Of a DNA stretch of 42,869 nucleotides, positions 16,696 to 35,699 are shown piece by piece (the stretch's first letter is position 1; each line of letters opens with the position of its first letter). The stretch lies in IMG/VR virus record IMGVR_UViG_3300045922_000174. One strand, given 5' to 3'. The DNA comes from a virus. The translations under genes were made by a program, and so were the position numbers. Below the pieces are notes generated by a model. The model made no database searches and was not told where the DNA came from. It was given only the letters and a program-made list of their open reading frames with translations.

Positions 16696-16756
16696 TAAAC
16701 ACCTCCCAATCGGTTGGGCAGGTCGGGGGGCGCGACCTGCCCAACCATACCAGTAA

Positions 16757-18876: not shown

Positions 18877-21800
18877 TTATTCAATAGTTGGCAGAACCGC
18901 ATTGTCAATCCAATCTTCCAGATTGCCCCACGGCTCTCCTAAACTGCGCCAAATGCGTTCGATTTCTAATCGCGCTCCCGGTAATAACGCCTCTCTACGA
19001 TACTTCAATGCGTACAACTGCATAATCAATCCTCTGGAGAAGCGTCTTAACTCGCTTGGCGTCAGATACGGACGCGCCGGCTTCGGCGATACACTTCGTG
19101 ATGTTCCTCCTGTGCCTGTTCCTGTGCTGGTTCTTCCACCTCCTCTTTCTCCTAAAATACTCCGTGCTAAACTTTCGTCTGTCAAAATGTACGGTGCGGC
19201 TTTGGGATATTGCGCCGCGAAATTGCGCTGGAACTCCCAATACTGTTCCAGTTCAGGATGCGCCGCTCTGAATGCACGCCGTTGCTGTTGCGGCAATGCG
19301 AAATAACGCTCCTGCAACTGGAAGATGTCCGGGAATAATTCGTCCCTCATCGCACGGTACATATAAACATACTGCTGAATTTCAGCAGGCAGACCGGCTA
19401 ACCGATTATTCTCGCCAATAACATACGGAATAATCTCTGGGTTTTCAGCAAGATACTTGTTCTGCCAACGAATAAACTCTTCGTTGTTCTCCGGTTGCTT
19501 CTCGAATAAAGCCCGCAAGGGGTCTGTCTGTTGCGGCGTCTCGCTCCGCGGGAACAGTCTATCGCGCTCTTCATAGTACTGCTTCACCTTCGCTCGCACA
19601 TTTTCGGGAAGCCAATTTATCTCCATCTTTGCATCATGGACATTCTCCAATGGCTTTTCCCCTAACGTGTTCGCCCACAGTGCTAACGTATCGGTGTCAA
19701 TACTGCCGTACGAACGTGTCTTCTTATCCAAGAATAACTCGGTGAACTTGTTTCCAGCCATCTGCTTGAACATACGCTGGGAAGCCGGGTCGAGGTCAAG
19801 GTATCGTTCCCAAATTCTCGAAATCAGGAATGCACGCAGTCGGCTTTGCGGGTTTTTCATCGCCATTCGCCGCGCATCATATTCAGGATATTTCTCCCAA
19901 AACTTGTTCACCGCTTGCGTGTCACCCTTTTCCTGCGCCTCATACGCTTTGGTCAATTCGTTCTTCAGCGCACGCATTTCGGCTTCGCCTTCCGGGAAGA
20001 TGTCCAGTGCTACACCAGCACCAAGCATCCGTACGAAACCGGTTTGCGATACGCGCCGTTGTGCTTCTTCGAATGCTTCTCCTTTCCGCTCAATCATGGC
20101 ACGAATGGCGGTCTGCTCATCCAGAAGACCATCCGCAACCATGTTGGATAATTCACGGTCAACACGATAATCTTCCCAACGGTCAATCTTGGGCAAGCCG
20201 GTGGCTGTTCTCACAAGACCTTCGATGTTGATGCCACGCGGGCCCCCAATGCCAAGCGCACCAGTAATGTTCTGGATGGTTCTGGTCAATGGCATTTGAC
20301 CAATGCGTTCCGGTGTTCCCATTGCATACTGATACGCAATGCCAATCGGCAGACTGGGCCCGTAAATGCTGAACAACATATCGGCACTATTGCGATATTC
20401 TCGTTCGGTCTCATTCTCCGCCTGTGCGTACGCTCGCTTCCAGATGGGCGTATTCCGCTTCCGCAAGGCTTCCTGTAATTGCGCATCGGTGATTTCCTCG
20501 TTGTCACGCATCTCTTTCAAGATGCTCTCTGTCTTGCGTATCAGCATGTTGCGCTCTTCGGCGATTTCTACAAACGGTGTCGCCAATTGCAGGAACGGGA
20601 ATATCTGCCTGTATGGGTCAACATATCCATACTGACCCATCCACTCCGGCAGGAACGGCAACGGAATAGGTACTTTCCCTTTCAATCGTTGCGGGAAGCC
20701 ATCCTTTTCCTCGCGGCGGGAAGCCATGCGCATCAGACGGTAGTAATTCGCCAAGATGGACGGCTTGTTCGCCATGCGAAGCAACCAGTTTATCATCGTG
20801 CGGGTGTACCAGAACTGGTATGGGAACACCGCCGATAGCAACGTATCGTAGCCATGCCGTCTGTCGTAATTCAGCAAAGCGAAATCACGGCGGGTTTCAC
20901 CCCAACGGATTGCGCCCATTCGAGTATCCGCAAGATTGGAGTACACACCACCCAAGTATCGCCATAAATTGTCTTCGGTCTCTTTCGGAATGCGGACGCC
21001 GCCGGCTTTCTCTGGACTGAACGCATCCAATGCCCGGTTTTTGGCTCTGTCCAGAATTGGCAACACATCTCGCAATGTGCCTTCCAGCATCGCATCACGC
21101 ATGGGCGCGTCTCTCATGCTATCGTATGTGCCTAATGGCGCGCCGACTGCATCGGCTACTCTTGGCTGTTCTCCGGCTGGTTGCTCTCCGGTTGGCTGTT
21201 CTCCAACGGGTTCTCCAACGGGTTGTTCTCTGACTGGTTGCTCTCCGAAGAGTTCGGTGATGGGTTCTCCGGCTGGCTCTGGCTGTCTTCCAGCGGTACT
21301 GTCCATGACCTCACCAACGGGCGCAACGGGGGCAGTTTCTGCGGGTGGTTCTGTGACGGTTCGTGCTGTTTCTCTTGGTACATCTTGTATCACCTCAAAT
21401 CGCACATTGTTTCTGGATGCCGCCGCATCGAACAAATCTTGCTTGCTTATCCTGCCAACGTCAAACATGGTCATCTGGTTTGCTGGCGGCTGTTTCAATG
21501 CCATGTCTACATACGTGCGGATAACCGCATCCAGCTTGCGTGTCTCACGTCCAACATCGTCAATCATCTTGACTAAACTGCGCTGAAAGCCGGTCAGGTC
21601 ATCGGTTGGGAACAACGTGGCTTGGCTCAAAAATTCCTTGACGGACATGCCCTGTTGCTTCAGTCTGGCTATCACGTCCACCGCGGCACTCAAATCATTG
21701 GCAATGCTGTATTCTGGTGAGACCACACCCATCCCGATTTGCGCTTCCAAATTCGCCATTGCTGGAAGCGTGCGGAATAACACGCTTTGCAGGGAACGGA

Positions 21801-24800
21801 TGCTCACGTCTAGACTTTCGGAGAATGCGGTAATCAATCTCGCGCCGGCTTCATTGGCATAAACCCGCGCAAACATGGCATTGATGATGCGCTGGGCTCC
21901 AACAGAAGACAATCTGCCGCTTGCGTCCATCATCGAAGCGCGTTCGTTGGCTGGCAACTGTTGAACGAAACTGCGCACAAAATCGGCATTCTTCGAGGAT
22001 GCGATAATCGGGACAACCTCATTGACGTTCTCCGGGAATTGGATATTCTTCAATGCTTCGTCACTGATAAATTTCGCATCCTGTAATGCCTTTTCGGCAG
22101 GTGACATTGCCATCACCGCGATTTGATTGGCTTCACGTGCAAATGCCGCCCGGTCAACGTCATCTTTTCGTACTCGAACCAATATCGGATTTTCTATTCC
22201 GCTGATGTCTATGCCTAGCTCTTGGGCGCGCATTGCCAAAGCATTTTGATACTGTTGCCATTTATCAGGATAATTCTCCTTTGCAAAGCGTAATGCCATT
22301 GCACGTCCGTTCCCGCTCTCAACAACGAAATCGGGCCCGACAATTATGGGGCCCCGGTCAATATATGGACTGTCATTCAGCAATTCGCCTGGGCTTAATT
22401 CGGACGCAATGCGATTAACTTGGTCACGGCTTGCGGCGCGTCCACGAACACGCGGTTGCAGTTCGCTGGGATACGCTGGATTTTCGCTGAAATTATCCAG
22501 ATGGCTGATGACCAACTGGTCAAGCGGGACAACCTGATATTCAAAGTGATACACCTTATTCACGTCTTGACCACGTGCCGTAGTCAGCCGCGATGCCTGT
22601 TCTGGTTGTGGAACTTCCTGCCGCAACACCGGCACTTCAGGTTGGCTCATCAGGTCATGAACGTATGTGGCGTTCTCAAATTCCTTGTCAACCTTTGTCT
22701 TGGGCAGTCCATACGGTTCTTCAGACAACCACTTGTCGAACACCGAACGGATGTTTTCGTCCAGTACAATCGGTTCTCCTCCCGATATGATGTTGCGAAT
22801 GCTCTTGTAAATATCCAGTAGCCATCGTTTGAACTTCTCAAAGATAGACTTCATGCGATGATTGGGTGCTTTCCCTTCGGCAAGATATTTCTCGAATGCC
22901 GTTGCAAATAATTCTTTCTCTCTTCGATGGGTGCGCGTGCCATACTGCCATCCTTCGGGAAGGTCTTCAATCTGGTAGACGCTTTTCAACCAGCGTTCGA
23001 CTGCGGCAATATCGTCCTTTGGAAGCATGGTCAGGAACGAGTGCGCCGTTTCGTGGACGAGTGTAGAAATGTCTCCACTTTGCTTGAAGATGGTAATCAA
23101 CGCCTTACCATCTTTCATGAATTGCGTCATACCTTTGGGAATGTCCTCGTCTGCCGGTCTTCTGCTGAAGAGTGGCTGTCCTTCCAGCACGCTCCTGCGC
23201 ATGGCATCGGTAATGGGGACGAACAGGAACTCGTTTGGTTCTCCCGGCAAATACATTGCTTCTGGCTCAACGCCCCATTTCTTCACATAGTCTTCGATTT
23301 TACGCGGCAGAATTTCATCGTAGAACTTCTTCAATCCACCGTGCGTAGTGTCGTAGGAAAGCCGGTTGAATGTTATGTTGCCTTCTTTCAAGAGACGATT
23401 GATATGTTCCAGCGAAAATTCTCCATCCACAAGTGATTTATTTAGCCTGTCATGCAAGACTTGTGCGGCATTTTCCACTGGAAGACGAACATATTCACTG
23501 AAAAGATACTCGTATCCTTCATCAGGTGTGTACACGTAGTATTCCAGTTTGTGAAAACCGTCCCCTGTGTTCCGTATTTCAATTTTCTCTATTGGAACGG
23601 CATATCTTCTGGTATGAATATCACCGCTTGCTATAAGAATGCCATCCATTTTCCGTTCGGCGGCGTAGTGAAGCATCCGCTTGAACACCAAAATATCCCA
23701 TTTCTTCGCAAATGGCATTTCTTGGTAGCCAAATTCTCGCAATATCTTATCTGCCATTTGCGGTGATGTTTTTGTTTCTTTATCCGCTTCGAACTGTTTT
23801 TGCTTTTGACGTAGCTCTTCGAAGAAGTCACTTTGGATTTCATCCACGTAAAGTACGCGCTCGCCGGTGTCTAATGTCAGTTCTTTGGTTCGTGCATGGG
23901 CAACTATGCCGTAATCTTCAAAATGCGTAGAACGATAAATAGCAGTTCTCGCATCTGGCATTTTTTCTTTTTCATAAGTTATCTTGAAAATATTATCTGG
24001 CTTTTCCGAACTTCGAAATCTCAATTCGACTTTTCCATCCGGTTCGACTTTGTAGTCTATTAAGTTTTCCAAACCATAAACTCTGAATGTGTCATAAATG
24101 TTAAGTTTCAAACTATGAACATCCAACGTTTTTGTTATATCGGGCATACCTGCTCTTTCAATGCGAATAGTTCCCCGATAGGCGTCTCTCATTGTTATAG
24201 GTACAAGCACGAACTCACGATAATTTTTACCACTGCCATATTTCAATTCGGAGAATTTTGGCATGTACTGTTCATATTTTGTTCGTCCCAATCCCATCTG
24301 TTCTTCTAACAATCTTTTCCAGACAGTGGGTCTTTCTTCTCTAAATTGAGGATTTTTCTCCTTCAGAGACCGCATAATGTCGTCCACTTTCAGGACTAAC
24401 TTTTCTAAATTTTTCCTCGTCAACCCCTCTATTTTTGTCAATGTAGCCAATTCGACAGAGTTTCTTTGCAGATACTCCATCAGCTCTGCTTTTGTGACGT
24501 AATCTTTTCGGGCAATATATTCGTCCAATCCCGTCCAAAGCATTTCTTCTCGTGACAGACCACGCTTTTTGAGATAACCCAAGAATTGCCCGCTGGACAT
24601 GCGCTCCTGCGGCATGGTCTCCACTGCCCTGAAAGTCGGAGAATAGTACCAGCTCGCCGGCTCATCCGGCGATTTTCTACGCTGGAACAACGGCAAACCC
24701 TCTTCTACGCTGTGTCTCATTTCCCACGTGATGGGGATTTTTGTCAGGTCAACCTTGCCCAACTTTTCCGTTTTTACGGTTTCTGTTTCGGGAACAACAT

Positions 24801-27800
24801 TCCATTTTTTGAATAACTTTGTAGCCACACTCTGGACAACTTTGTCGTAGAAATAGACCAGACCGGGATTTTCTGTAATGACAACGCCATTATCCTTTGG
24901 TAGTTTTATTGTGACAGTCAGATAATTGAAGTAGTCCGCTTTTCCTTCCGTATATTTTCCGCTTTGTAATTGTTTGACCAATGCGTCTAAAATCTGGTCA
25001 ATCATGTGTTCGTGCGGAATGTATTCTTTCAGCTGGTTTTTGAGGAAGGCGCGATGTTCAGGATTGTTGACCAGCGTGATTGCCGTGTTCGTTTCCGGGT
25101 CAGAAGGTAAGTAATTAACCCTTCCGTATCCGAATATTCCTTTGGAATAGTCATCATCCACAAGAAGTTGGTACAGATACGGCGCATTTTTGGCAATCAT
25201 TATTTCTATTTTTTCGGGTGATTTCTTTGTGTTGTAATACAAAGCGGCGTTCATTACGCCGGACGGAAGGATAAAGTAGTCTGCATCAGTGGCTTTAACG
25301 GCATAGTGCAACGCTCTTTTGAGACCAAGCTCAACCCATTTCTTGGTATCGCTGAATGGAAAATCATTTACAAAGTTTCTAAAATACCTTTCAGGGTCGT
25401 AATATAAATCTGATTCATCCGCAAAGAAAAGAACTTTTTTCCCATATATAACATAGGTGAAATCTTTTTTTTGTTCGAGATATGAAATTATCTCGTCCGG
25501 GTTTTCCTTGAAACGTTCCACAAGCCATCCTGCAGCTTGTCTACCTGTTTTGATGCCGTTATAGTATATATCGTATAACGCCACTTCAGGCTCTCGTGGT
25601 AATGCATAGTCGTCAATCGTTTTCTCAAAATGCAACTGGAAACTAAATTTGGTGGGGTCAAGTCGCTCAACACGCTGTGGTAACCCGTCTTCTGCATTGA
25701 CAAATTCCAATTTTTTCGCTTGGAATAAATCGCTTTGAATTTCCTCTGCAAAGAACGCTTTTTTGCCGTTCTTCGTTCGGATTTTCCCTCCGCGTACGTG
25801 CAAGAACGGGAGTGGTTCATTCTTATCGAGAAGTCTGTCTGCCCAATAACCCGCTTTTCTCCAATGAGTTCCTGCCACATCCGACCAGGCGTGTCTAAAA
25901 TTAATATTCAATTGTGCTGATGCTAAAAGCTCTCTGTCTACATAGACTTCAATGCTTCTTCCGTCTTTGGATGTTCTCCATTCGACATCCAGTTTTTCTC
26001 CATGCAAGCGCGCCCAACGTTCTTTTTGGCGTACGGCTGTCCGTAAAAGTTCAAGTGCTTCTAATTTCGTGACATCGTACGGGTTGTCTGCAAATACCCT
26101 TGCGTCACCGGCTACAGACCACGTTCTTCCTTGATGCTCATTGAGTAACAGTAACTCAACGTAATCCCCACCCGATTGCGCAACATAACTATACTCACCG
26201 TATATGGGCTTTCCGCTTTGTTCAATGTCTGCGATTTTCTCTTTCTCTCTGCCAAAGCGTTTGGCACGGTTATAAAGCGTTTTGACGTCCGGGTATCTAT
26301 ATTCAATTTCTTGCCGCAACCATCCACGCGTGAGGATGTCATTGTCATCGAACAGGTCAAAAACTCCAGACCAGTAAATTTCGTTCTCGCTGACACCGCG
26401 CCCAAGTAAATATCGTTTCCACTCACCGATTGTCGCTTTATTGACGCGCGCCTTGTCAATCTCCTCCAATAACTTGGATGAATACCACTTATTGCCAACA
26501 CGCTGGAATAATGGCTGACCCGCAAGTAAGTCATCTATCATCCGTGGTTCATCTACATCAAGCACCCACGCCCCGGGCTCCCATAAAAACGGAAGGGCAT
26601 CTTCTTTGTATTGGAACGCCTTGCCCCACTTCTTCAGGTACTTGTTGGCAGTGGCAATCAATCGTTCATCATAGAACTTTCCAACACCAGCATTGGCGGT
26701 TTTCAGCATCTCTTTGTCAACGTCTATGAGAATTTGTCCTTCATCGGCTTTTTGCATAACATGCTCTGTTAATTTTTCGCCGATATAACTTGGCAATTCC
26801 CTGTAAGTATTTACTCTTTCTATTTCGTTCTTTCCTTCTGTTGGATAGATTAGCAACGTAACTGATTTTGTAAAGTCTGGTTTTCCTGTTCCGTCATCTT
26901 CAAATGTAACTTGTAGTCTTTCAATCCCCTTTGATAAATCCCATCGCTCCTCATGAACTTTGCCCGGAGAAATAGCAATCATGCTGTACCCTTCTTCAAT
27001 TGCATAACGCAACATTCTCTTTATAGCCAATTCATCCCAATTCTTGCTGAAAGGAGCCGGCGGTACTTTATTTTCAACTTGCGCTATCCATAATGCGGCA
27101 TATCTTGGCAGTATTCCAGTTTCTTGGTATCTCTCAAAATCACCGCTGTCAATTTGTGTAATCGCTAACCCTCGTTTGTCGAGAATGGCATAAATGCGTT
27201 TTTCTCCTAATGTATCGCCTGTATCTACAATTTTATAGCCTTCCGGCAAAGTTCTATCGAGCTCCCCAAAATAACCATACCTCCGCCCTGCTTGATGCCA
27301 ATCACTTTGAATCTCGTCTATGTATAAAATCGTACGTCCTGCATGTTGAAAACCCGTATAACGAACGTGAACAATCGGATTGAGTTCAGACCAATGCGGA
27401 CTTTGATAAACATAATTACCAAGTATAAAATTTCGTATTGCTTCATGAGGCGTCTTGTCCACCTCATAAACCGTGCCATAATATTTATCTCGAATGGCGT
27501 ATCCCCCTTTAAGTACATTATCAGGCACTAACTCGACATCTGGCGGAAGAGAATCAGTGTAATACAATGGCAATTGTAGTAAAAGCTCATTATATCCAAG
27601 AAATTTTTCACGTAAATCAGCAGAGTCTTTTCCTCTCCTTATTGTTTCCCTATAAGTACTATATAGTTCGTATTTAGGAAAATATTTTCTCCGTATAGAG
27701 AAGTCCTTTACGCTCATTACTTGTGTGGCTTCCGTTTCAAGATAATCAATCAAATCTTGTTTCGTCACCACCTCATTGCCTTTGCTGGCAAGATAATTCG

Positions 27801-30800
27801 AAAGACCCATCCAGCGAAGCTCTTCATCCTTCACCTGCGCGCTTTTCAGAATGTTTAGCCATTGATTCGCCGGTGCTTTCTCAACTTTTGCCCCCTCAAT
27901 CGCCTGTTGCGATTTCAAGTAATACCATTGACTACTTACGTAACGGGACTGTTTCAAATCCTCTTCGTCAACCGGTAAATCCTTGTACTGGATAATAAAT
28001 CTTTCGTAGAACGCATCCGGTGTCGTGTTGTATTCTCTTGCGTAATGGCTCGCCATCGCATCCCAAATCTTCAGCATGGCATCGGCTTGCTCTAACGCTT
28101 TCCGCTCGTCTCTCATCCGCTCCGTGAGAAACTCCAGAACCCCTTGATAAGCCACCTGTCGGGCATACTCCGGCTCATCTGCCCGCGCCAAGACATCATT
28201 CATGTTCAGCTCAATCACGCGCGCCATCTGTTCTGCCTGTTGCATCCAATTGCCTTGCGCAAGCGGTTCGGACGGCGGTTCTGTCGTTTCTCCTTCCACC
28301 TTCTCCAGAGAGTATGTGGAACGGTCATACTTCATAAAATTCGGGTCGGCGTTTCGTTGCGCCTCGGACGCCTTCAATACTTGATATACATCCTCAATAG
28401 ACGGGATGTCGCTCAACTTCCCAACGGCATAGTGCATCATCATTCCGGTATATCGCTCGATTTGCCCGGTCTCGCTGTTTTTCATGGTCAGTGTGCCATG
28501 CAACACCCGTTCCTGAATTTGCTTGGCGTAATTTTCGGCGTCCTTTTTCTTCTCGAAAATCGCCGCAAATTCATCACCACCAATCCGATATAGACTGACA
28601 CCTAAACTGTCCGCCACATCCCCAATGTACTGAATGTATGCGTTCCCAACCAAATCACCAAATTTCTTATTGGTGAGATGCAGACCGCGCAAATCAAACG
28701 CAATAGTCCAGTATGACTTCGGCTTCTTTGCCCTTTTATTCTGCTCCGCCAATTTCTCAAGGTCTTTTATCATCCGCCCTTTGTTGCGGAAACCGTACGT
28801 ATCATGGTCGGCTTCAAAATCTCTGCTCTCCAACGCCCGCGCCATATACACCGCTTGCTCGGACAATGCGTCTTTCGGCATTTGCCCAACGTCTTGAAGC
28901 GGCGCAATGTCATAACCGGCATTGAATCGGTCAATCCGTTTCGTTTTCTTTTTCTCTTGAATGGCGCGCAATAAGACCGGAACAGTAATATCTTTGATGC
29001 TCCGAACGTATTCATATTGTGCATAGGCTCTCACGAAATTAATCAAATGCTGTTCAGAACCTTTCAACGGTCTGCCTTGCGCATCCACCTGTCTGAATTC
29101 TGGTAATTCCTGTGCAACCAGTTTCCAGATAATTTGCTCTTGCCGTCTTTGCTCTTCAAATACGGCATCGTATGGTTGCGATGGAACGTATGTAGACTGC
29201 GGCTTTTCTTCTGCCGGCTTGACCTCCGCCGTTTCGGCTACGGGTTGTGCCTGTTCGGTCTGCGCCCGTGTTTCTGGTCTCAAATTTAATTCCGGCTTTT
29301 CCAGTGACGTGCTTCCCACCGCATTTCGATTGGACGTGTCCAGCAGTTCGGCAATCAAAGGCTGATAAATCGTCTGATAGAATATCTGATTGATTCTTTC
29401 CCTTTCGCGGACTGCAATCCGATGAATGGGAACGCCCTGATTCAGCTCAAGGATTCTCTGCTTCACCTCCGGTTCGAGTAAATCGCCCCACTCATCCAGA
29501 AACTCTTGCGGGATTTGTCCTTCCCGGAAGAGTAACGTTGCTTGTTGCGTGCGGCGGCGAACACGTTGTACGCTTTCACGCCAACGCATCGCATCCAGAT
29601 AGGCTTGTGGGTCACCATTCATCTGTTGCTGATACTGCCGTGCAAACGACTTGTTCAGACTGTCTTGTAGCAAATCTTCGGCAAGTATCATGAAGCGATA
29701 CTCTCTGGCAACTTGGGCATTCACTTCTTCCCAAGCCGTAGCACGCGCTTCGGCGCGCATGTTTTCCGGCATCGTTTCATCCGCATCAATTCGTTCAATG
29801 ACGCTCCAGTAGTTATCAAACGCATCCTTGCGTGTCTGATAAAAATTCCGGTAGGTGGCGTAAATATTCAGCAAGGTGGTTTCTGCGCTAACGTATTCCG
29901 GGCTTGCCTCCTCCGCGCCAAGTCCCTTGAAGATGCCCAACCACGTTGCCCCTTCCTGATTTTGGTACAACGTCCAGAAAGCATCTTGCTGTTCAAATAA
30001 TTTGCGCCATTCTCTTGCACGTTCTGCACCGGTTAAATTGCGGATTTCTTCGGCACGCATCTCCATCTGGAACATGTGATTCAGCCACACTTCGGCAAGC
30101 ATGGACGTTGCTCTATCGGCTTCATCCAGCACCGCTTGTGTCTTCTCCACATGCGCTTTTTGTGCGGCTTCCTCCACCCGCCCTTCAATGTTGCGCATTG
30201 TCTCATTGACCAAATCACGAACCAAACCACTGCGCGCTCTTTCAAATACATCTGCAATGTCTTGCTTCGAACGTGCATTGCGCAACCCCTCATCCAACTC
30301 ATCGTACATTTCGGGGAAATGCTGTTTCAAGAAATTCCGTTCTTGCCGGGTCAGAACATCGTCAAGCGAACGGGTGTCAATCTCCTTGAAAATCTTCCTC
30401 TCAATCGCTTCTTTGCTCATCCCGCTTTCGATGGCGCGCTTCACCTTATCCGCAAGACCGGGCTTGACCGTATCCAGCGCAAGGCGAAGTTCATCGCTCA
30501 TCCGCTCAAAGGCAACACCTTCTCGCCATGCGTTCTTGAAATACTCATCTATGCCATTTATCATGGCAATTTCGCTTGCCCATCGCTCTACCTTCTGCGA
30601 TAGAATGCCAAATACCTGCGCTTTCTTTCCCTTCTTCAGGAAATTGATGACACCTGCCATTGCGCCTTGCGCTTCTTTGGCTTCCTCGATATGTCGCCCA
30701 ATCCGTTCGCCTTTGGCAATCCCTTTCTTCCCGACAATCTCCTCCACACGCCCAAATTCAACATCGCCAATCTCTGCCGCACCAATACCCTGACGCAAAC

Positions 30801-33228
30801 GGGTGGGCTCCATGTCGAAATCACGCAAGAACTTCATGCGCGCTTTCGGACTGCGCCGGTTGAGTAAGCCGTCCCACGCCAACGTGACAATGTTGTTCAA
30901 TGCATTGTTCACGAAATAAGTCGGGTTCAACCCCAACAGTAAATAGCCTTGAACGCGCTTGTTGATGTCTATCAACGCTTCGCCCAAGCCCATCTTCTTC
31001 AAGCCGAAATATCGCGCTGACCATTCGTCTGCATGGTCAGCAAGCAAGGTAATCAGATGATAACGAAATACATCCGGGTCAAAAGCCGGCGCTTTCGCTC
31101 CATAGAAACCATCCGCAATTTGTTTCAGTTTCTTTGCACCGTCCGGGTCAACCGTAAAAGCGTTTAGCACCTCATACGTTCGCTTCCCCGCATCTGACAG
31201 TTTCTGATAATCCCCCAATGACTGTATCGCATCACGCAAGAGGGCTTGCGCTTTCGCATTGTCCCCAACGTGCAGGTCACGCAATACGGCGTATGGCTCT
31301 TGTCCCAATGCCAATGCCAATACATGAATCACCCGTCTTTCTGGCTCCGCCTTCTGGTAATTCGCCAACAACTCTTCCACCTTTGGCATGGCGTCACGAA
31401 TTGCCAACGGAACGTGTTGCGCCTCTGTGCTGGAGAACCAGCGCGGCAATGGCGCATCTACCAATTTGCCGCCAACACTCATCTTTATCGTCCCGGTTGC
31501 GGCTTGCACTGCATCTTCGGGTGTAAGATTAGCAATGCTCCTGACCAAATCCACCATGTTTTCGGGACTTTTCTTCTCCAGCGTCATCAGATTGGTCAAG
31601 CCGTCCACCGTGTTCTGTAACACGGACACGGCACGCGCTTTTGGCGTCAGACCGAAAACATTGGCATACAGACTGCTGACTAAATTCTTGTTTTCCGGTT
31701 TGGTGAAGTCAATCACACGCCCTTGACTGTCCAAGCCGGCGATGAAGCGTGCCAACGGATTGAGTTTTGCGGCTTGGTCAACCGGCAACTGGCGTGCTAA
31801 ATGGGCATAATATCGCGCTCCGGTCAATAAATCGGGAACACGCCCGGGCTGTTTCAAAAATGCTTCTGCCGCCATCGGATGTCCGGTGAGTTGTGCCGTT
31901 TTCCCAATCGCCTTTGAACCGACAACACCGGTCAAATCCAATGGGTCAAGGACGTAACCGCCAATCAAATCAGCAAATTCACCGCTGAAGCCAAACTGCA
32001 TCGTGTACCAGTTCAGGACTTCATCCGGTGTTATATCGCCGCGTGCCAATGCACGGCGCATTTCGGTCAACGCCCATTGGGTTGGCATTCCCTTTGGCGT
32101 GATAATGCTCTCATCTTGTGGTCTGGTGAGTTCAATTCGTGTAAATCCCGGCGTTCCTTTTCCGGTGAGTTGCTCCAGAAGCACTTCAATTTGCGCTGGA
32201 ACAGTGGCGTACAAACCACGTCCAGCCGCCGCGGCGGCTTCCCAATTCTTCAAAATCTCTTCGACTGAACCGTACTGTTCAGGGTCAATTGCTGAATACA
32301 ATAATTGCGTCAAAATACCAAGCAATTCCTGACTTTTACGGTACGGCTCATCTAGCAATGCCAATGCTTTCAACCAACCGGGCTCTTGATACACGCCGCC
32401 GCTGGCAATGATTTGTTGGGCGCGCTCCATCTCCTTGTACTGCGCCACGCCAAGTCCAGCACCACCCGCCAATCCGATGACACCACCAACCGGGCCCGCA
32501 AAAGCAAGACCTAAAATCCCGAAATTGAGTGCCGATTGTGCCGCCTGACCGGGCATGGTGCGGAAGATTGCCAATGCGGCTTTCTTCCAATCCGGCAATT
32601 GCTTCCACGTTTCCTCGTCAATCCCATACTGCGTCCAGGGCCCCACTGTGCCAACCTGTTTTGGCGGCACATACAAGCCAATATTCTTGGCTACCTCGAA
32701 CGACCGTGCCAATTGCTGACGTTCCCAATCCGGTATCGCTTCAATCGGCGGTGCAGGCATTTGCTTTACAAAATCGTGAAGCGGGTCATCCTTGCTGATT
32801 TGTCCCCAATTTATCCAGTCATCGCCGTATCTGGCGGTCAATTCTTTGTAAGCGGCTTCCAGTTTCGGCATGTCCAGCCATGCAGGCGGTTGAATGTCCG
32901 GCATGGTCTTGATGGCATTGTAGTATCGTCCAATCCGGCGTGCATCCGTCCAGAAATTCCCACCGGAGTTCCGGTCTTGCGCCACCCAATATTCTCCCAT
33001 CGGGCCCGGAATTTGCGGACGCGCAATTTCCATGCCCATTTCGGCGAACCGTTGTTGTACCAACGGATTATTGATGAACTCCTGCGATACATTCCAGAAA
33101 TACTCACCACCCGGCAGGTTAAAACGACCCACACCGGGCGATTTCTGATACTGCTCCGGCGTGTATTTGGGTGCTGGAATAGGAGTAATTTTGTTTGTCG
33201 GTGCGCCGTATGGGATTTTGGTTGCCAT
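18877..33228 (-). CDS. Giant multidomain virion-associated 'polyvalent' protein (4,783 aa) in the minor-head-protein (MuF) slot
   Basis: An uninterrupted reading frame of 14.35 kb. The likely start is ATG 33228 (MATKIPYG...) after GGAGGAT, overlapping the upstream stop (TGATG); the track start at 33261 has no RBS. It lies between the portal block and scaffold/capsid. It contains a glycine-zipper TM segment, a GGDEF-like domain, three repeated modules, an HExxH zincin and a ParB-like domain. Confidence 0.85.
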   Translation of the reverse strand: MATKIPYGAPTNKITPIPAPKYTPEQYQKSPGVGRFNLPGGEYFWNVSQEFINNPLVQQRFAEMGMEIARPQIPGPMGEYWVAQDRNSGGNFWTDARRIGRYYNAIKTMPDIQPPAWLDMPKLEAAYKELTARYGDDWINWGQISKDDPLHDFVKQMPAPPIEAIPDWERQQLARSFEVAKNIGLYVPPKQVGTVGPWTQYGIDEETWKQLPDWKKAALAIFRTMPGQAAQSALNFGILGLAFAGPVGGVIGLAGGAGLGVAQYKEMERAQQIIASGGVYQEPGWLKALALLDEPYRKSQELLGILTQLLYSAIDPEQYGSVEEILKNWEAAAAAGRGLYATVPAQIEVLLEQLTGKGTPGFTRIELTRPQDESIITPKGMPTQWALTEMRRALARGDITPDEVLNWYTMQFGFSGEFADLIGGYVLDPLDLTGVVGSKAIGKTAQLTGHPMAAEAFLKQPGRVPDLLTGARYYAHLARQLPVDQAAKLNPLARFIAGLDSQGRVIDFTKPENKNLVSSLYANVFGLTPKARAVSVLQNTVDGLTNLMTLEKKSPENMVDLVRSIANLTPEDAVQAATGTIKMSVGGKLVDAPLPRWFSSTEAQHVPLAIRDAMPKVEELLANYQKAEPERRVIHVLALALGQEPYAVLRDLHVGDNAKAQALLRDAIQSLGDYQKLSDAGKRTYEVLNAFTVDPDGAKKLKQIADGFYGAKAPAFDPDVFRYHLITLLADHADEWSARYFGLKKMGLGEALIDINKRVQGYLLLGLNPTYFVNNALNNIVTLAWDGLLNRRSPKARMKFLRDFDMEPTRLRQGIGAAEIGDVEFGRVEEIVGKKGIAKGERIGRHIEEAKEAQGAMAGVINFLKKGKKAQVFGILSQKVERWASEIAMINGIDEYFKNAWREGVAFERMSDELRLALDTVKPGLADKVKRAIESGMSKEAIERKIFKEIDTRSLDDVLTRQERNFLKQHFPEMYDELDEGLRNARSKQDIADVFERARSGLVRDLVNETMRNIEGRVEEAAQKAHVEKTQAVLDEADRATSMLAEVWLNHMFQMEMRAEEIRNLTGAERAREWRKLFEQQDAFWTLYQNQEGATWLGIFKGLGAEEASPEYVSAETTLLNIYATYRNFYQTRKDAFDNYWSVIERIDADETMPENMRAEARATAWEEVNAQVAREYRFMILAEDLLQDSLNKSFARQYQQQMNGDPQAYLDAMRWRESVQRVRRRTQQATLLFREGQIPQEFLDEWGDLLEPEVKQRILELNQGVPIHRIAVRERERINQIFYQTIYQPLIAELLDTSNRNAVGSTSLEKPELNLRPETRAQTEQAQPVAETAEVKPAEEKPQSTYVPSQPYDAVFEEQRRQEQIIWKLVAQELPEFRQVDAQGRPLKGSEQHLINFVRAYAQYEYVRSIKDITVPVLLRAIQEKKKTKRIDRFNAGYDIAPLQDVGQMPKDALSEQAVYMARALESRDFEADHDTYGFRNKGRMIKDLEKLAEQNKRAKKPKSYWTIAFDLRGLHLTNKKFGDLVGNAYIQYIGDVADSLGVSLYRIGGDEFAAIFEKKKDAENYAKQIQERVLHGTLTMKNSETGQIERYTGMMMHYAVGKLSDIPSIEDVYQVLKASEAQRNADPNFMKYDRSTYSLEKVEGETTEPPSEPLAQGNWMQQAEQMARVIELNMNDVLARADEPEYARQVAYQGVLEFLTERMRDERKALEQADAMLKIWDAMASHYAREYNTTPDAFYERFIIQYKDLPVDEEDLKQSRYVSSQWYYLKSQQAIEGAKVEKAPANQWLNILKSAQVKDEELRWMGLSNYLASKGNEVVTKQDLIDYLETEATQVMSVKDFSIRRKYFPKYELYSTYRETIRRGKDSADLREKFLGYNELLLQLPLYYTDSLPPDVELVPDNVLKGGYAIRDKYYGTVYEVDKTPHEAIRNFILGNYVYQSPHWSELNPIVHVRYTGFQHAGRTILYIDEIQSDWHQAGRRYGYFGELDRTLPEGYKIVDTGDTLGEKRIYAILDKRGLAITQIDSGDFERYQETGILPRYAALWIAQVENKVPPAPFSKNWDELAIKRMLRYAIEEGYSMIAISPGKVHEERWDLSKGIERLQVTFEDDGTGKPDFTKSVTLLIYPTEGKNEIERVNTYRELPSYIGEKLTEHVMQKADEGQILIDVDKEMLKTANAGVGKFYDERLIATANKYLKKWGKAFQYKEDALPFLWEPGAWVLDVDEPRMIDDLLAGQPLFQRVGNKWYSSKLLEEIDKARVNKATIGEWKRYLLGRGVSENEIYWSGVFDLFDDNDILTRGWLRQEIEYRYPDVKTLYNRAKRFGREKEKIADIEQSGKPIYGEYSYVAQSGGDYVELLLLNEHQGRTWSVAGDARVFADNPYDVTKLEALELLRTAVRQKERWARLHGEKLDVEWRTSKDGRSIEVYVDRELLASAQLNINFRHAWSDVAGTHWRKAGYWADRLLDKNEPLPFLHVRGGKIRTKNGKKAFFAEEIQSDLFQAKKLEFVNAEDGLPQRVERLDPTKFSFQLHFEKTIDDYALPREPEVALYDIYYNGIKTGRQAAGWLVERFKENPDEIISYLEQKKDFTYVIYGKKVLFFADESDLYYDPERYFRNFVNDFPFSDTKKWVELGLKRALHYAVKATDADYFILPSGVMNAALYYNTKKSPEKIEIMIAKNAPYLYQLLVDDDYSKGIFGYGRVNYLPSDPETNTAITLVNNPEHRAFLKNQLKEYIPHEHMIDQILDALVKQLQSGKYTEGKADYFNYLTVTIKLPKDNGVVITENPGLVYFYDKVVQSVATKLFKKWNVVPETETVKTEKLGKVDLTKIPITWEMRHSVEEGLPLFQRRKSPDEPASWYYSPTFRAVETMPQERMSSGQFLGYLKKRGLSREEMLWTGLDEYIARKDYVTKAELMEYLQRNSVELATLTKIEGLTRKNLEKLVLKVDDIMRSLKEKNPQFREERPTVWKRLLEEQMGLGRTKYEQYMPKFSELKYGSGKNYREFVLVPITMRDAYRGTIRIERAGMPDITKTLDVHSLKLNIYDTFRVYGLENLIDYKVEPDGKVELRFRSSEKPDNIFKITYEKEKMPDARTAIYRSTHFEDYGIVAHARTKELTLDTGERVLYVDEIQSDFFEELRQKQKQFEADKETKTSPQMADKILREFGYQEMPFAKKWDILVFKRMLHYAAERKMDGILIASGDIHTRRYAVPIEKIEIRNTGDGFHKLEYYVYTPDEGYEYLFSEYVRLPVENAAQVLHDRLNKSLVDGEFSLEHINRLLKEGNITFNRLSYDTTHGGLKKFYDEILPRKIEDYVKKWGVEPEAMYLPGEPNEFLFVPITDAMRRSVLEGQPLFSRRPADEDIPKGMTQFMKDGKALITIFKQSGDISTLVHETAHSFLTMLPKDDIAAVERWLKSVYQIEDLPEGWQYGTRTHRREKELFATAFEKYLAEGKAPNHRMKSIFEKFKRWLLDIYKSIRNIISGGEPIVLDENIRSVFDKWLSEEPYGLPKTKVDKEFENATYVHDLMSQPEVPVLRQEVPQPEQASRLTTARGQDVNKVYHFEYQVVPLDQLVISHLDNFSENPAYPSELQPRVRGRAASRDQVNRIASELSPGELLNDSPYIDRGPIIVGPDFVVESGNGRAMALRFAKENYPDKWQQYQNALAMRAQELGIDISGIENPILVRVRKDDVDRAAFAREANQIAVMAMSPAEKALQDAKFISDEALKNIQFPENVNEVVPIIASSKNADFVRSFVQQLPANERASMMDASGRLSSVGAQRIINAMFARVYANEAGARLITAFSESLDVSIRSLQSVLFRTLPAMANLEAQIGMGVVSPEYSIANDLSAAVDVIARLKQQGMSVKEFLSQATLFPTDDLTGFQRSLVKMIDDVGRETRKLDAVIRTYVDMALKQPPANQMTMFDVGRISKQDLFDAAASRNNVRFEVIQDVPRETARTVTEPPAETAPVAPVGEVMDSTAGRQPEPAGEPITELFGEQPVREQPVGEPVGEQPTGEQPAGEQPRVADAVGAPLGTYDSMRDAPMRDAMLEGTLRDVLPILDRAKNRALDAFSPEKAGGVRIPKETEDNLWRYLGGVYSNLADTRMGAIRWGETRRDFALLNYDRRHGYDTLLSAVFPYQFWYTRTMINWLLRMANKPSILANYYRLMRMASRREEKDGFPQRLKGKVPIPLPFLPEWMGQYGYVDPYRQIFPFLQLATPFVEIAEERNMLIRKTESILKEMRDNEEITDAQLQEALRKRNTPIWKRAYAQAENETEREYRNSADMLFSIYGPSLPIGIAYQYAMGTPERIGQMPLTRTIQNITGALGIGGPRGINIEGLVRTATGLPKIDRWEDYRVDRELSNMVADGLLDEQTAIRAMIERKGEAFEEAQRRVSQTGFVRMLGAGVALDIFPEGEAEMRALKNELTKAYEAQEKGDTQAVNKFWEKYPEYDARRMAMKNPQSRLRAFLISRIWERYLDLDPASQRMFKQMAGNKFTELFLDKKTRSYGSIDTDTLALWANTLGEKPLENVHDAKMEINWLPENVRAKVKQYYEERDRLFPRSETPQQTDPLRALFEKQPENNEEFIRWQNKYLAENPEIIPYVIGENNRLAGLPAEIQQYVYMYRAMRDELFPDIFQLQERYFALPQQQRRAFRAAHPELEQYWEFQRNFAAQYPKAAPYILTDESLARSILGERGGGRTSTGTGTGGTSRSVSPKPARPYLTPSELRRFSRGLIMQLYALKYRREALLPGARLEIERIWRSLGEPWGNLEDWIDNAVLPTIE
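21160..21255. repeat. Short imperfect tandem repeats encoding a Pro/Glu/Gly-rich linker (GEQPx units)
   Basis: The protein reads ELFGEQPVREQPVGEPVGEQPTGEQPAGEQPRV. The DNA shows reiterated ggctgttctcc / ggttgctctcc / gggttctcc units. Confidence 0.7.
22160..22557 (-). other. ParB/sulfiredoxin-fold (ParB-like nuclease, DdrB-type) domain
   Basis: VPLDQLVISH...ELQPRVRGRAASRDQVNRIASELSPGELLNDSPYIDRGPIIVGPDFVVESGNGRAMALRFA contains the LQPRxR and (S)GNGR motifs characteristic of ParB-like domains in polyvalent proteins. Confidence 0.6.
22800..23140 (-). other. Zincin-like metallopeptidase domain (HExxH) of the type found in phage/plasmid polyvalent proteins
   Basis: ISTLVHETAHSFL places HETAH at 23041..23055. 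It is followed by ELFATAFEKYLAEGKAPNHRMKSIFEKFKRWLLDIYKSI, which matches the HExxH ... ExFAxxFExY pattern I associate with polyvalent-protein metallopeptidases. Confidence 0.6.
23158..24651 (-). other. Repeated module copy 3 (about 498 aa) in the giant protein
   Basis: Ordered motifs are WYYSPTFRAVE...QFLGYLKKRGLSREEMLWTGLDEYI, then AHART...VLYVDEIQSDFFE, PFAKKWDILVFKRMLHYAAERKMDGILIASG, KFYDEILPRKIEDYVKKWG and GQPLFSRR. Confidence 0.7.
24652..26495 (-). other. Repeated module copy 2 (about 614 aa) in the giant protein
   Basis: Ordered motifs are WYSSKLLEEIDKA...EWKRYLLGRGVSENEIYWSGVFDLF, then LHVRG...FFAEEIQSDLFQ, PFSDTKKWVELGLKRALHYAVKATDADYFILPSG, YFYDKVVQSVATKLFKKWN and GLPLFQRR. Confidence 0.7.
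26496..27936 (-). other. Repeated module copy 1 (about 480 aa) of unknown function in the giant protein
   Basis: Ordered motifs are WYYLKSQQAIEG...QWLNILKSAQVKDEELRWMGLSNYL, then HVRY...ILYIDEIQSDWHQ, PFSKNWDELAIKRMLRYAIEEGYSMIAISPG, KFYDERLIATANKYLKKWG and GQPLFQR. Confidence 0.7.
28420..28820 (-). other. GGDEF-type (diguanylate-cyclase-like) nucleotide cyclase domain within the giant protein
   Basis: HDTYGFRNKGRMIKDLEKL (compare DxLTGLxNRR) ... YWTIAFDLRGLHLTNKKFGDLVGNAYIQYIGDVA (compare DIDxFKxxNDxxGHxxGD) ... VSLYRIGGDEFAAIF (a literal GGDEF at 28567..28581) ... MMHYAVGK (compare SIGVA). Confidence 0.75.
32440..32590 (-). other. Glycine-zipper / hydrophobic segment within the giant protein
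   Basis: ALAIFRTMPGQAAQSALNFGILGLAFAGPVGGVIGLAGGAGLGVAQY is the only strongly hydrophobic Gly-rich stretch near the N-terminus (roughly residues 215-260). Confidence 0.5.
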
Positions 33229-35696: not shown

Positions 35697-35699
35697 CGC

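What the first reader, a model, noticed from the sequence alone, without database searches (positions are those of the whole stretch)
23158..27936. Three tandem, diverged copies of a ~480-615-aa module with motifs I cannot assign (WY..S / H.R-(D/E)EIQSD / PF..KW..L..KR.L.YA / KFYD...KKWG / G.PLFQR)
Copies at 27936..26496, 26495..24652 and 24651..23158 share the same ordered motifs. (i) An N-terminal WY(Y)S...W...L...GV/L..EE..W.GL..Y. (ii) a beta-strand-like xHxR followed by hhh(D/E)EIQSD(W/L/F). (iii) PF(S/A)xKW(D/V)xLxxKRxLxYAxxxxxxxhhhxxG. (iv) (K/Y)FYDxxhxxxxxxxxKKW(G/N). (v) a terminal G(Q/L)PLF(Q/S)R(R). Protein identity is low enough that the DNA is no longer repetitive, so the triplication is ancient and maintained. 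Copy 2 carries a ~130-aa insertion. The invariant acidic EIQSD after a hydrophobic strand, together with the conserved His/Arg, looks catalytic (nuclease- or transferase-like), but I cannot name the family. Together the modules make up ~1,600 aa of the giant protein, between the cyclase-like domain and the zincin.
Basis: seen in the sequence. Interest (0 to 1): 0.7.

Follow-up and report, generated by a model that had tools for sequence, protein, structure and literature searches.

The report
Triple effector module in giant phage protein
A 4,794-residue protein of a phage, encoded between the portal and capsid genes, carries three diverged copies of a protein module that is very common in uncultured phages but has no curated family, solved structure or known function; it looks like an enzyme with a loosely acetyltransferase-like fold.

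Summary
Giant ORF 18877..33261 (-) holds three adjacent homologous modules, aa 1776-2255, 2256-2862 and 2863-3368. Pairwise BLASTP gives E 6e-21 to 2e-6.

The module is not an orphan. A profile search finds 15,605 cluster representatives, 10,108 of them at E<=1e-30. Most of the top hits are 1-7 kaa phage proteins. Stand-alone versions lie just after the portal gene or among internal virion protein genes. Pfam, NCBIfam, PADLOC and PDB sequences have no model for it. PHROGs covers it only inside one giant profile labelled "endolysin".

AlphaFold models (pTM 0.74 and 0.81) show a small helical N-domain, an alpha/beta core and variable inserts. For the minimal core, 47 of the top 50 Foldseek PDB hits are GNAT acetyltransferases, but none is significant (best E 0.04). 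Profile-profile comparison with GNATs is also not significant.

All three copies keep the family's invariant polar residues.

The "ancient, maintained triplication" reading is only partly supported. The copies are 23-26% identical, and each is closer to modules in other proteins. They have aberrant GC3 (0.36-0.45 against 0.55-0.59 in the flanks). Against a near-identical relative, they are the only divergent part of the protein, with whole insert cassettes replaced.

Best reading: virion-delivered, probably enzymatic effector modules with swappable specificity inserts.

The parts
18877..33261 (-). Giant ORF of 4,794 aa. It is a phage polyvalent-type protein encoded between the portal gene and the scaffold and major head genes.
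   Evidence: It is identical to library protein P0035.
26497..27936 (-). Module copy 1 (aa 1776-2255, 480 aa). Its helical N-domain is aa 1776-1852 and its alpha/beta core is about aa 1888-2255.
   Evidence: BLASTP; HMM; AlphaFold model with pLDDT 77 and pTM 0.74. It keeps 18 of the 18 columns that are >=90% conserved in the family.
24676..26496 (-). Module copy 2 (aa 2256-2862, 607 aa). It is the most divergent copy and has six extra inserts.
   Evidence: It keeps 15 of the 18 conserved columns.
23158..24675 (-). Module copy 3 (aa 2863-3368, 506 aa).
   Evidence: It keeps 16 of the 18 conserved columns.
27301..27315 (-). EIQSD motif of copy 1 (aa 1983-1987). It lies at the end of a beta-strand and is the invariant E-x-Q-S-D of the family.
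25729..25743 (-). EIQSD motif of copy 2 (aa 2507-2511).
23827..23841 (-). EIQSD motif of copy 3 (aa 3141-3145).
25369..25701 (-). Variable cassette of copy 2 (aa ~2521-2631), lying between the EIQSD motif and the PF..KW motif. In the near-identical relative L009 it is replaced by an allele of about 35% identity, with sharp boundaries.
   Evidence: dS 0.97, dN 0.34
24052..24417 (-). Variable cassette of copy 3 (aa ~2949-3070), lying around and after the NYRE strand. It is diverged in L009.
   Evidence: dS 0.38, dN 0.22
28417..28791 (-). GGDEF domain upstream of the modules (aa 1491-1615), with an intact GGDEF motif at aa 1561-1565.
22726..23100 (-). Zincin-like region immediately after copy 3 (aa 3388-3512), with HETAH at aa 3403-3407. 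It is a candidate processing peptidase.
   Evidence: phrog_9880, E 1.2e-21; motif seen in the sequence; no Pfam hit
22165..22557 (-). ddrB-like ParB domain (aa 3569-3699).
   Evidence: Pfam PF18763, E 5.8e-27
33942..37722 (-). Packaging genes upstream of the giant gene: putative portal (33942-35696), large terminase (35700-37172) and small terminase (37141-37722).
   Evidence: The portal assignment is weak (phrog_64, E 5.5e-4).
17161..18165 (-). Major head protein gene downstream of the giant gene. The 223-aa ORF at 18168-18839 between them is a likely scaffold gene.
   Evidence: phrog_212, E 1.9e-30

Best explanation
The three units are paralogous copies of a widespread, uncurated effector module of phage 'polyvalent' proteins.

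Anatomy of each unit:
- a ~75-aa helical, possibly winged-helix-like N-domain (FYS...W.GL);
- an alpha/beta core whose conserved strands and helices carry an invariant polar cluster. The cluster comprises E of NYRE; H...H.R; E.QSD followed by W.Q.GR..GY; PF..W..L..KR...A; G..QA.RY; GG.G..FYD; and K(K/Q)WG;
- variable subdomains inserted between these conserved blocks.

Inferred mechanism:
1. The giant protein is packaged in the capsid, because its gene lies between the portal and head genes.
2. It enters the cell with the DNA.
3. It may be cut into units by the adjacent HExxH peptidase.
4. Each module then acts as an enzyme on a host target.

The most likely chemistry is GNAT-like acyl transfer. 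In this reading E214 on the strand acts as the base, R224-x-x-G227 forms a degenerate pyrophosphate loop, and Y331 acts as the acid. The variable inserts would set acceptor specificity, so the three copies would hit three different targets.

Shown here: homology of the copies, the size of the family, the phage structural-gene context, conservation of the polar residues in all copies, and cassette replacement in the inserts.

Inferred: packaging, proteolytic processing, enzymatic activity, and the acyltransferase chemistry. For the chemistry alone my confidence is about 0.35.
For: Homology of the three copies.

Family size and architecture:
- 15,605 representatives at E<=1e-3 and 10,108 at E<=1e-30, mostly giant proteins.
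- Partner domains include ART-PolyVal, MuF_C, LPD3, ParB and RadC. These belong to the polyvalent-protein repertoire of Iyer et al. 2017 (PMC5512222).

Genomic context:
- In the window the order is terminase, portal, giant gene, major head gene.
- A stand-alone 737-aa version lies directly after a P22-type portal gene and upstream of the coat gene (L004).
- Another lies between the terminase and capsid genes (L005).
- In pelagiphage HTVC028P the module is in gp34, among the internal virion protein genes.

Enzyme-like conservation: E214, Q216 and A311 are 100% conserved; R197 99%; S217 96%; H186 95%; D218 92%; Y409 97%; D410 95% over 242 instances. All are kept in copies 1, 2 and 3.

Fold:
- The minimal-core model has pLDDT 85 and pTM 0.81.
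- 47 of its top 50 Foldseek PDB hits are GNAT acetyltransferases.
- The independent copy 1 model also draws GNAT, Eis-like and chimallin hits.
- A viral N-acetyltransferase appears among the sub-threshold BFVD hits.
- hhalign places the family's W.EL..KR.LR.A..GYD-IAWTTG-..QA.RY segment on GNAT alpha3-beta5-alpha4.

Inserts as specificity elements: against relative L009, the flanks have dS ~0.005, while the insert cassettes of copies 2 and 3 have dS 0.97 and 0.38, with sharp boundaries at the conserved motifs.
Against: - No Foldseek PDB hit is significant. The best has E 0.04 and probability 0.6-0.7, TM scores are <=0.36 and rmsd values are large.
- hhalign against a 116-sequence GNAT profile gives a probability of only 3-12% (P 0.003-0.013). 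The reversed-sequence control gives P 0.012-0.025.
- No GNAT Pfam model matches any of the 40 members scanned, even at E<=1.
- The canonical Q/R-x-x-G-x-G/A motif is not fully present. The last position is K/R/Q/A/S.
- In the models a variable insert separates the R..GY segment from the helix that would be alpha3.
- Most of the invariant residues (H186, H195, R197, Q216, S217, D218, Y409, D410) have no GNAT counterpart.
- Packaging, processing and activity are all untested.
Confidence: 0.5

Rival explanations
1. The module is an enzyme of a different, new class, not CoA-dependent. It would use the H/H.R + E.QSD + YD + KR cluster for phosphoryl or nucleotidyl transfer, or for hydrolysis. Examples are a nuclease in the PD-(D/E)xK 'D...ExQ' style, a nucleotide-modifying enzyme, or an enzyme that degrades defence signals. 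The GNAT resemblance would then be only a generic alpha/beta sandwich likeness.
For: - The polar constellation is richer than in typical GNATs and includes residues common in phosphate chemistry: His, Arg, Lys, Ser, Asp and a Gly-rich loop (GGEGM) before a helix.
- GNAT sequence tests fail.
- E-x-Q after a hydrophobic strand, with D200 14 residues upstream, recalls the BglII-type D...E.Q site. This rests on my own knowledge, not on a test.
- The module neighbours nucleotide-signalling and DNA-binding domains (GGDEF, ParB).
Against: - Neither Foldseek run returned nucleases or nucleotidyltransferases in any number. Three of the 50 hits were non-GNAT, and each was a different fold. Class II tRNA synthetase hits to the copy 1 model have probabilities of 0.01-0.02.
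- In a beta-hairpin, D200 lies at the turn, far from E214 and Q216. This follows from the strand positions.
- No nuclease or NTase family matches in Pfam or NCBIfam.
Confidence: 0.25
2. The modules are non-catalytic. They would be structural or adaptor units of the internal virion or ejection apparatus, or DNA- or portal-binding spacers. Their tandem number would set the size or reach of the ejected protein, and the conserved polar residues would be structural or binding residues. Chimallin is a precedent for a non-enzymatic GNAT-like fold.
For: - The gene position is typical of internal or ejection proteins.
- Chimallin appears among the weak fold hits.
- The N-domain is helical, with one sub-threshold winged-helix hit in a homologue's module (MCM4_WHD, E 5.9e-4).
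- Copies abut directly, without linkers, in many proteins.
Against: - Invariance of a cluster of charged and polar residues across 242 instances that share a median of only ~30% identity is more typical of catalysis.
- The family is usually fused to bona fide enzymes, in the effector-type architectures described for polyvalent proteins (PMC5512222).
- No similarity to solved ejectosome or core proteins appeared in the PDB search.
Confidence: 0.12
3. On origin, the first reader's view: a single ancestral module was triplicated in situ long ago. The three copies have since been kept in place by selection and diverged only by point mutation.
For: - The copies are adjacent, collinear and all intact, and each retains the conserved residues.
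- Tandem arrays of 2-3 modules recur in other giant proteins. Within-protein identities range from 20% to 69%, so in-situ duplications of various ages do happen.
- dN/dS is below 1 in every copy.
Against: - Each copy's best match is a module in another protein. For copy 1 the best sister copy ranks 128th of 241 instances.
- GC3 is 0.36, 0.45 and 0.445 in the copies against 0.55-0.59 in the rest of the same gene. It returns to ~0.56-0.61 at the module junctions.
- The only substantial divergence from the near-identical relative L009 is inside the modules. dS there is up to 0.97 against 0.005 in the flanks, so recombinational import is ongoing.
- Of 79 related IMG/VR ORFs, only L009 has more than one copy.
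Confidence: 0.25

Closest known systems
[quoted passage not shown]
   Same: - It is a giant multidomain protein of a terminase-portal phage, encoded in the head gene cluster.
- It combines GGDEF, a zincin-like HExxH region and DdrB-ParB with uncharacterised globular domains.
- Family members are fused to ART-PolyVal, MuF_C, LPD3 and RadC.
- The paper proposes capsid packaging, injection and processing by the metallopeptidase.
   Different: - No Pfam LPD model matches the module.
- Whether it equals one of the LPDs that never reached Pfam (for example LPD4, LPD19 or LPD21) could not be checked, because the paper's supplement is not held.
- Three tandem copies of one uncharacterised module, with cassette-like inserts, are not described in the text I read.
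GNAT (GCN5-related N-acetyltransferase) superfamily, for example Naa10/Naa50, GCN5, RimI, AtNATA2
   Same: - The predicted core has a three-strand antiparallel meander, then helix, strand, helix, then C-terminal strands.
- 47 of the top 50 PDB fold hits are GNATs.
- The segment W.EL..KR.LR.A..GYD / IAWTTG / ..QA.RY aligns with GNAT alpha3-beta5-alpha4.
- An acidic residue on the strand before an R-x-x-G loop resembles the GCN5 arrangement. This is from my own knowledge.
   Different: - There is no significant structural or profile score.
- There is no Pfam GNAT hit.
- The Q/R-x-x-G-x-G/A motif is incomplete.
- Large inserts split the core.
- Many invariant residues have no GNAT equivalent.
- The family is distinct from the two RimI-like GNAT families that Iyer et al. 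report in polyvalent proteins.
P1 Dar-type internal head (antirestriction) proteins and T7-like internal core proteins
   Same: - The proteins are encoded with the head or internal-protein genes.
- The giant protein contains a DdrB-like ParB domain.
- The module occurs in gp34 of the internal-protein cluster of pelagiphage HTVC028P.
   Different: - There is no sequence or fold similarity of the module itself to solved core or ejection proteins.
- An antirestriction role is only an analogy.
phrog_7348 (PHROGs v4, annotated 'endolysin')
   Same: Positions ~1600-2076 of this 2,564-position profile match the module in copy 1 and in nine homologues.
   Different: The PHROG is a whole giant-protein profile, and its label comes from another domain. 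It gives no information on the module's function.

Membership tests
Polyvalent proteins (Iyer et al. 2017) | A large polypeptide that combines several effector-type domains from the polyvalent repertoire | tested here: met
   GGDEF (E 1.4e-6) and ddrB-ParB (E 5.8e-27) occur in one 4,794-aa ORF. There is an HExxH region. Homologues of the module are fused to ART-PolyVal, MuF_C and LPD3.
Polyvalent proteins (Iyer et al. 2017) | Encoded by a terminase-portal phage, next to virion structural genes | tested here: met
   Small and large terminase, putative portal, giant gene, then major head protein. Stand-alone homologues have the same placement.
Polyvalent proteins (Iyer et al. 2017) | Packaged in the capsid, injected, and processed by the zincin peptidase | not testable with these tools
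   This needs virion proteomics and mapping of cleavage sites.
Pfam LPD families / any curated domain family | A match to a curated profile over the module | tested here: not met
   Pfam at E<=10 on the three copies, and at E<=1 on 40 family members, gives no recurrent family. NCBIfam gives none. PADLOC gives none. PDB sequence profiles give none. LPDs absent from Pfam could not be checked.
GNAT superfamily | GNAT fold (mixed sheet with a beta2-3-4 meander, alpha3, beta5, alpha4, beta6/7) | tested here: inconclusive
   47 of the top 50 Foldseek PDB hits to the core model are GNATs, but the best has E 0.04 and TM <=0.36. The copy 1 model also draws weak GNAT hits.
GNAT superfamily | The Q/R-x-x-G-x-G/A pyrophosphate-binding motif after beta4 | tested here: inconclusive
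   The family has R224 (R/K 94%)-x-x-G227 (97%)-Y-x after the E.QSD strand. The final position is K/R/Q/A/S, not G/A. A variable insert follows before the next core helix.
GNAT superfamily | Detectable sequence-profile relationship to bona fide GNATs | tested here: not met
   hhalign against a profile of 116 PF00583 proteins gives probability 3-12% and P 0.003-0.013. The reversed control gives P 0.012-0.025.
GNAT superfamily | Acyl-CoA binding and acyl transfer | not testable with these tools
   This needs a biochemical assay.
PD-(D/E)xK nucleases | A D...(D/E)xK catalytic motif on a restriction-endonuclease-like alpha-beta-beta-beta-alpha-beta core | tested here: not met
   The motif is E-x-Q with no Lys. 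No nuclease fold appears among the Foldseek hits. There is no nuclease Pfam hit.
Diversity-generating retroelement target (as an explanation of the hypervariable cassettes) | A template repeat near the variable region, and adenine-specific changes | tested here: not met
   There is no second copy of either cassette in the window (blastn word 9). Synonymous divergence of ~1 indicates allele replacement rather than targeted mutagenesis. No reverse transcriptase appeared among the window ORFs that were scanned; not every ORF was scanned.

The most novel reading that the evidence does not exclude
The module defines a new, very abundant enzyme family of phage-injected effectors. It has a GNAT-derived or convergent alpha/beta scaffold and a novel E.QSD/H.R/YD active site, and its substrate range is re-programmed by recombinational swapping of inserted specificity cassettes. 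A tandem array such as the triple one here would be a multi-target anti-defence or host-takeover battery delivered with the DNA.
Probability: 0.3. Interest if true: 0.8.

Novelty: new variant of a known kind. Interest (0 to 1): 0.6.

Why it matters
More than ten thousand sequence clusters of phage proteins carry this module, yet no curated database names it and no structure or function is known. If it is an enzyme injected with the DNA, it is probably one of the commonest uncharacterised tools phages use in the first minutes of infection.

This window offers a convenient entry point:
- It has three intact, diverged copies side by side.
- It has a clear candidate active site to mutate.
- It has natural allelic cassettes, seen against the near-identical relative, that point to the parts likely to decide target specificity.

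The work also makes the polyvalent-protein hypothesis (packaging, peptidase processing, multiple effectors) directly testable on a 43-kb phage genome segment that spends a third of its length on one gene.

Tried and rejected
- Pfam, NCBIfam and PADLOC scans of the copies and of canonical homologues gave no family. PHROGs gave only the giant profile phrog_7348.
- PDB sequence searches with 3- and 40-sequence profiles gave nothing except a chance FkpA helix match.
- Foldseek of the whole copy 1 model against PDB gave no significant hit. Class II lysyl-tRNA synthetase and cytolysin hits (probability <=0.05) were rejected as noise.
- Foldseek against BFVD gave only uncharacterised giant phage proteins, named after their other domains.
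- hhalign against a purpose-built GNAT profile, with the variable regions removed and with reversed controls, was not significant. I therefore do not file the module as a GNAT.
- megablast of the region against phage genomes found no match. tblastn found only weak hits in seven phage records.
- A literature search for the motif string found nothing relevant. The supplement of the polyvalent-protein paper is not held.
- An exact-sequence look-up of the giant protein's contig found nothing on record.
- A DGR explanation for the variable cassettes was rejected.
- I considered a beta-clamp-binding reading of the terminal GQPLF motif and rejected it. The Q is only 69% conserved and the spacing differs from QL(S/D)LF (the consensus is from my own knowledge).
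- A PD-(D/E)xK reading of D200...E214.Q216 was considered and judged unlikely. See the rival explanations.

Full report
**1. What is in the sequence**

The region lies inside one uninterrupted ORF, 18877..33261 on the minus strand, encoding 4,794 aa.

- EIQSD at aa 1983, 2507 and 3141
- KR.L.YA at aa 2081, 2648 and 3194
- FYD at aa 2196, 2804 and 3313
- KKW(G/N) at aa 2210, 2818 and 3327
- PLF(Q/S)R at aa 2250, 2857 and 3363

The three units are homologous by pairwise BLASTP: c1-c3 E 5.7e-21, c2-c3 E 2.7e-10, c1-c2 E 1.6e-6. A family HMM delimits them at aa 1777-2256, 2257-2863 and 2867-3370. The in-frame window coordinates are 26497-27936, 24676-26496 and 23158-24675.

The copies share 23-26% identity and have no detectable DNA similarity. 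Copy 2's extra length is spread over six inserts (16, 16, 13, 40, 23 and 21 aa), not one insertion.

- A GGDEF domain at aa 1491-1615, with an intact GGDEF motif.
- An HExxH (HETAH) region right after copy 3.
- A ddrB-type ParB domain at aa 3569-3699.

**2. Genomic setting**

The window is a tailed-phage genome segment. The gene order is small terminase, large terminase, putative portal, the giant gene, a likely scaffold gene, then the major head protein. Tail-fibre-like genes, a GH25 lysin, RecT and a DnaN-like clamp follow. The giant gene occupies 14.4 kb, a third of the window.

**3. The module is a very large, uncurated family**

A word-indexed search with the three copies found only 34 relatives. 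An exhaustive profile search of 1.84 billion cluster representatives found far more: 15,605 at E<=1e-3 and 10,108 at E<=1e-30. The window's own protein is in that library as P0035.

Most top hits are proteins of 1,000-7,000 aa. Arrays of two or three modules recur among them. In a sample of 79 IMG/VR ORFs, however, only the window's close relative has more than one copy.

Hundreds of 550-900-aa stand-alone versions also exist. They sit in three kinds of place:
- directly after a P22-type portal gene (L004);
- between the terminase and capsid genes (L005 and L006);
- next to an integrase in bacterial contigs.

In the cultured pelagiphage HTVC028P, the module lies in gp34, among the internal virion protein genes. 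A pattern scan of one genome per GTDB species found 199 loci in many bacterial phyla.

Partner domains are ART-PolyVal, MuF_C, LPD3, ParB and RadC. This is the repertoire of 'polyvalent proteins' (PMC5512222).

No curated resource names the module:
- Pfam gives nothing for the three copies at E<=10, nor for 40 members at E<=1.
- NCBIfam gives nothing.
- PADLOC gives nothing.
- PDB sequences give nothing.
- PHROGs covers it only inside a 2,564-position giant profile labelled endolysin.
- The BFVD structural neighbours are all 'uncharacterized' giant phage proteins.

Whether it corresponds to one of the LPDs of Iyer et al. that never entered Pfam could not be checked.

**4. Anatomy and conservation**

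I made two AlphaFold models. One is of copy 1 (pLDDT 77, pTM 0.74). The other is of the shortest homologous core (P0016; pLDDT 85, pTM 0.81). Together they give this layout:

- A confident ~75-residue helical N-domain. A homologue's copy gives one sub-threshold winged-helix hit.
- A low-confidence linker.
- An alpha/beta core, in this order:
  1. strand (NYRE.LL.LP)
  2. variable insert
  3. strand (LAH.R..DR)
  4. strand (L.IEEIQS)
  5. short helix (DWHQ.GR..GY)
  6. variable insert
  7. P-rich loop (VP.APF)
  8. helix (W.EL..KR.LR.A..GYD)
  9. strand (IAWTTG)
  10. helix (..QA.RY)
  11. variable insert
  12. Gly-rich loop (GGEGM)
  13. long helix (FYD..LP....KY.KKWG)
  14. two strands
  15. 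a final helix
  16. the GQPLF tail

Over 242 instances with a median identity of ~30%, the columns conserved at >=90% include E119, H186, R197, E214, Q216, S217, D218, Q221, G227, P294, W299, A311, G324, R330, Y409 and D410 (HMM numbering). Copies 1, 2 and 3 keep 18, 15 and 16 of the 18 such columns, and all keep the E.QSD, H, R and YD residues. This pattern is that of an active site and argues that all three copies are functional.

**5. Fold and family tests**

Against the PDB, the minimal-core model returns GNAT acetyltransferases in 47 of its top 50 places: Naa10, Naa50, GCN5, RimI, AtNATA2, agmatine and polyamine N-acetyltransferases, and others. The best E-value is 0.04, probabilities are <=0.7 and TM scores <=0.36. 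The independent copy 1 model also draws GNAT, Eis-like, HAT1 and chimallin hits, again without significance.

To test this lead by sequence, I built a profile of 116 bona fide PF00583 proteins and compared it with the family by hhalign. The best alignment puts the family's helix-strand-helix (W.EL..KR.LR.A..GYD / IAWTTG / ..QA.RY) on GNAT alpha3-beta5-alpha4. The probability is only 3-12% (P 0.003-0.013), hardly better than the reversed-sequence controls (P 0.012-0.025).

The canonical Q/R-x-x-G-x-G/A motif is only approximated by R-x-x-G-Y-x.

I therefore treat 'GNAT-like fold' as the best lead and do not file the module as a GNAT. No nuclease, nucleotidyltransferase or ART fold was retrieved.

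**6. Evolution of the three copies**

Three observations bear on the 'ancient, maintained triplication' reading.

- *Similarity.* Each copy is more similar to modules in other proteins (best 35%, 26% and 32%) than to its sisters.
- *Composition.* GC3 is 0.36, 0.45 and 0.445 in the copies, against 0.55-0.59 elsewhere in the same gene. It returns to 0.56-0.61 across the module junctions. The drop is also visible in the raw GC profile.
- *Comparison with a near-identical relative.* The IMG/VR contig L009 covers aa 897-4794.
  - Outside the modules, the two proteins differ at one residue in ~2,300, with dS ~0.005.
  - 171 of the 172 amino-acid differences fall in aa 1850-3250.
  - dS is 0.22 in copy 2 and 0.10 in copy 3.
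  - It peaks at 0.97 in the copy 2 segment between EIQSD and PF..KW, and at 0.38 in the copy 3 segment around and after the NYRE strand.
  - The boundaries are sharp and lie at the conserved motifs.
  - Such high synonymous divergence means allele replacement by recombination, not local hypermutation. No template repeat exists in the window.
  - Copy 1 shows 14 nonsynonymous and 5 synonymous changes.

The array is therefore a mosaic that is still being re-assorted, with the variable inserts as the exchanged cassettes. An old in-situ triplication is not excluded, but it is not the simplest reading.

**7. Most likely function**

Four lines point the same way: placement between the portal and head genes, the polyvalent-type partner domains, the adjacent HExxH region, and the enzyme-like conservation. 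The best-supported explanation is that the giant protein is packaged in the capsid and enters the cell with the DNA. It may then be cut into units by its zincin. Each module would act enzymatically on a host target, and the swappable inserts would set specificity. Three diverged copies would then mean three targets or target variants.

The most likely chemistry is GNAT-like acyl transfer. My confidence in that chemistry alone is about 0.35. My confidence in the overall picture is about 0.5.

Rivals are:
- a new non-CoA enzyme, hydrolase or phosphotransferase (0.25);
- a non-catalytic structural or adaptor role in the ejection apparatus (0.12).

**8. Verdict**

This is a real, intact, triple array of a hugely abundant but uncurated phage module, with a candidate active site and a weak GNAT-like fold signal. 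It is a new variant within the known class of polyvalent-protein domains rather than a categorically new system. It is worth experimental follow-up because of the family's size and the clear, testable predictions.

Noticed in passing
window 23158-27936 compared with L009 (IMGVR_UViG_3300045912_000185): Between two otherwise near-identical phages (flank dS ~0.005, one amino-acid change in ~2,300 residues), 171 of 172 amino-acid differences fall inside the three modules. Two insert cassettes are replaced outright: aa ~2521-2631 and aa ~2949-3070, with dS up to 0.97.
   Followed up: yes
window 23158-27936: The module region has GC 41-43% and GC3 0.36-0.45, against 51% and 0.55-0.59 in the rest of the same gene. 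GC3 recovers in the 100-codon windows that span the module junctions.
   Followed up: partly
window 28567-28581 (aa 1561-1565): The GGDEF domain of the giant virion-type protein has an intact RIGGDEF signature. A phage-delivered cyclic-nucleotide synthase is therefore plausible.
   Followed up: no
window 32443-32532 (aa 244-273): There is a glycine-rich hydrophobic stretch (ALNFGILGLAFAGPVGGVIGLAGGAGLGVA) near the N-terminus of the giant protein. It could be a membrane-inserting segment. The first ~1,400 aa and the last ~1,000 aa match no family.
   Followed up: no
window 21163-21267 (aa 3999-4033): There is a degenerate tandem peptide repeat (GEQPV/REQPV/GEPV/GEQPT/GEQPA/GEQP). It is probably a flexible linker in the C-terminal third of the giant protein.
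   Followed up: no
window 8011-8448 (-): A 145-aa ORF between the tail-fibre-like genes is built almost entirely of a repeated ~17-aa unit (RVTGTGVQVEHDIPLET...).
   Followed up: no
window 15995-16744 (-): A family-2 glycosyltransferase gene (Pfam E 2.6e-7) sits between the head and tail genes.
   Followed up: no
window 1189-2244 (-) and 5134-5931 (-): The phage encodes its own DnaN-like sliding clamp (DNA_pol3_beta, E 3.4e-14) and a RecT recombinase (E 1.5e-42). The recombinase may be relevant to the cassette exchange seen in the modules.
   Followed up: no
module C-termini: aa 2248-2254, 2855-2862, 3361-3368 (window about 26500-26520, 24676-24699, 23158-23181): Each module ends with G(Q/L)PLF(Q/S)R(R), and the next module starts 3-9 residues later. 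The G.P(L/M)(F/Y) tail is conserved family-wide (G 96%, P 81%), including in stand-alone proteins. It lies after the last helix, where model confidence is lower. It could be a processing or docking motif.
   Followed up: partly
P0036 (3,239 aa) and other homologues: Some relatives combine three modules with five ART-PolyVal repeats in one protein. Within-protein module identities range from 20% to 69%, so arrays have arisen repeatedly and at different times.
   Followed up: partly
L090 and L149 (genome contigs): Module-bearing contigs are binned with Nitrosotalea and Nitrosopumilus (archaeal) MAGs. This could mean archaeal viruses carry the module, or it could be a binning artefact.
   Followed up: no
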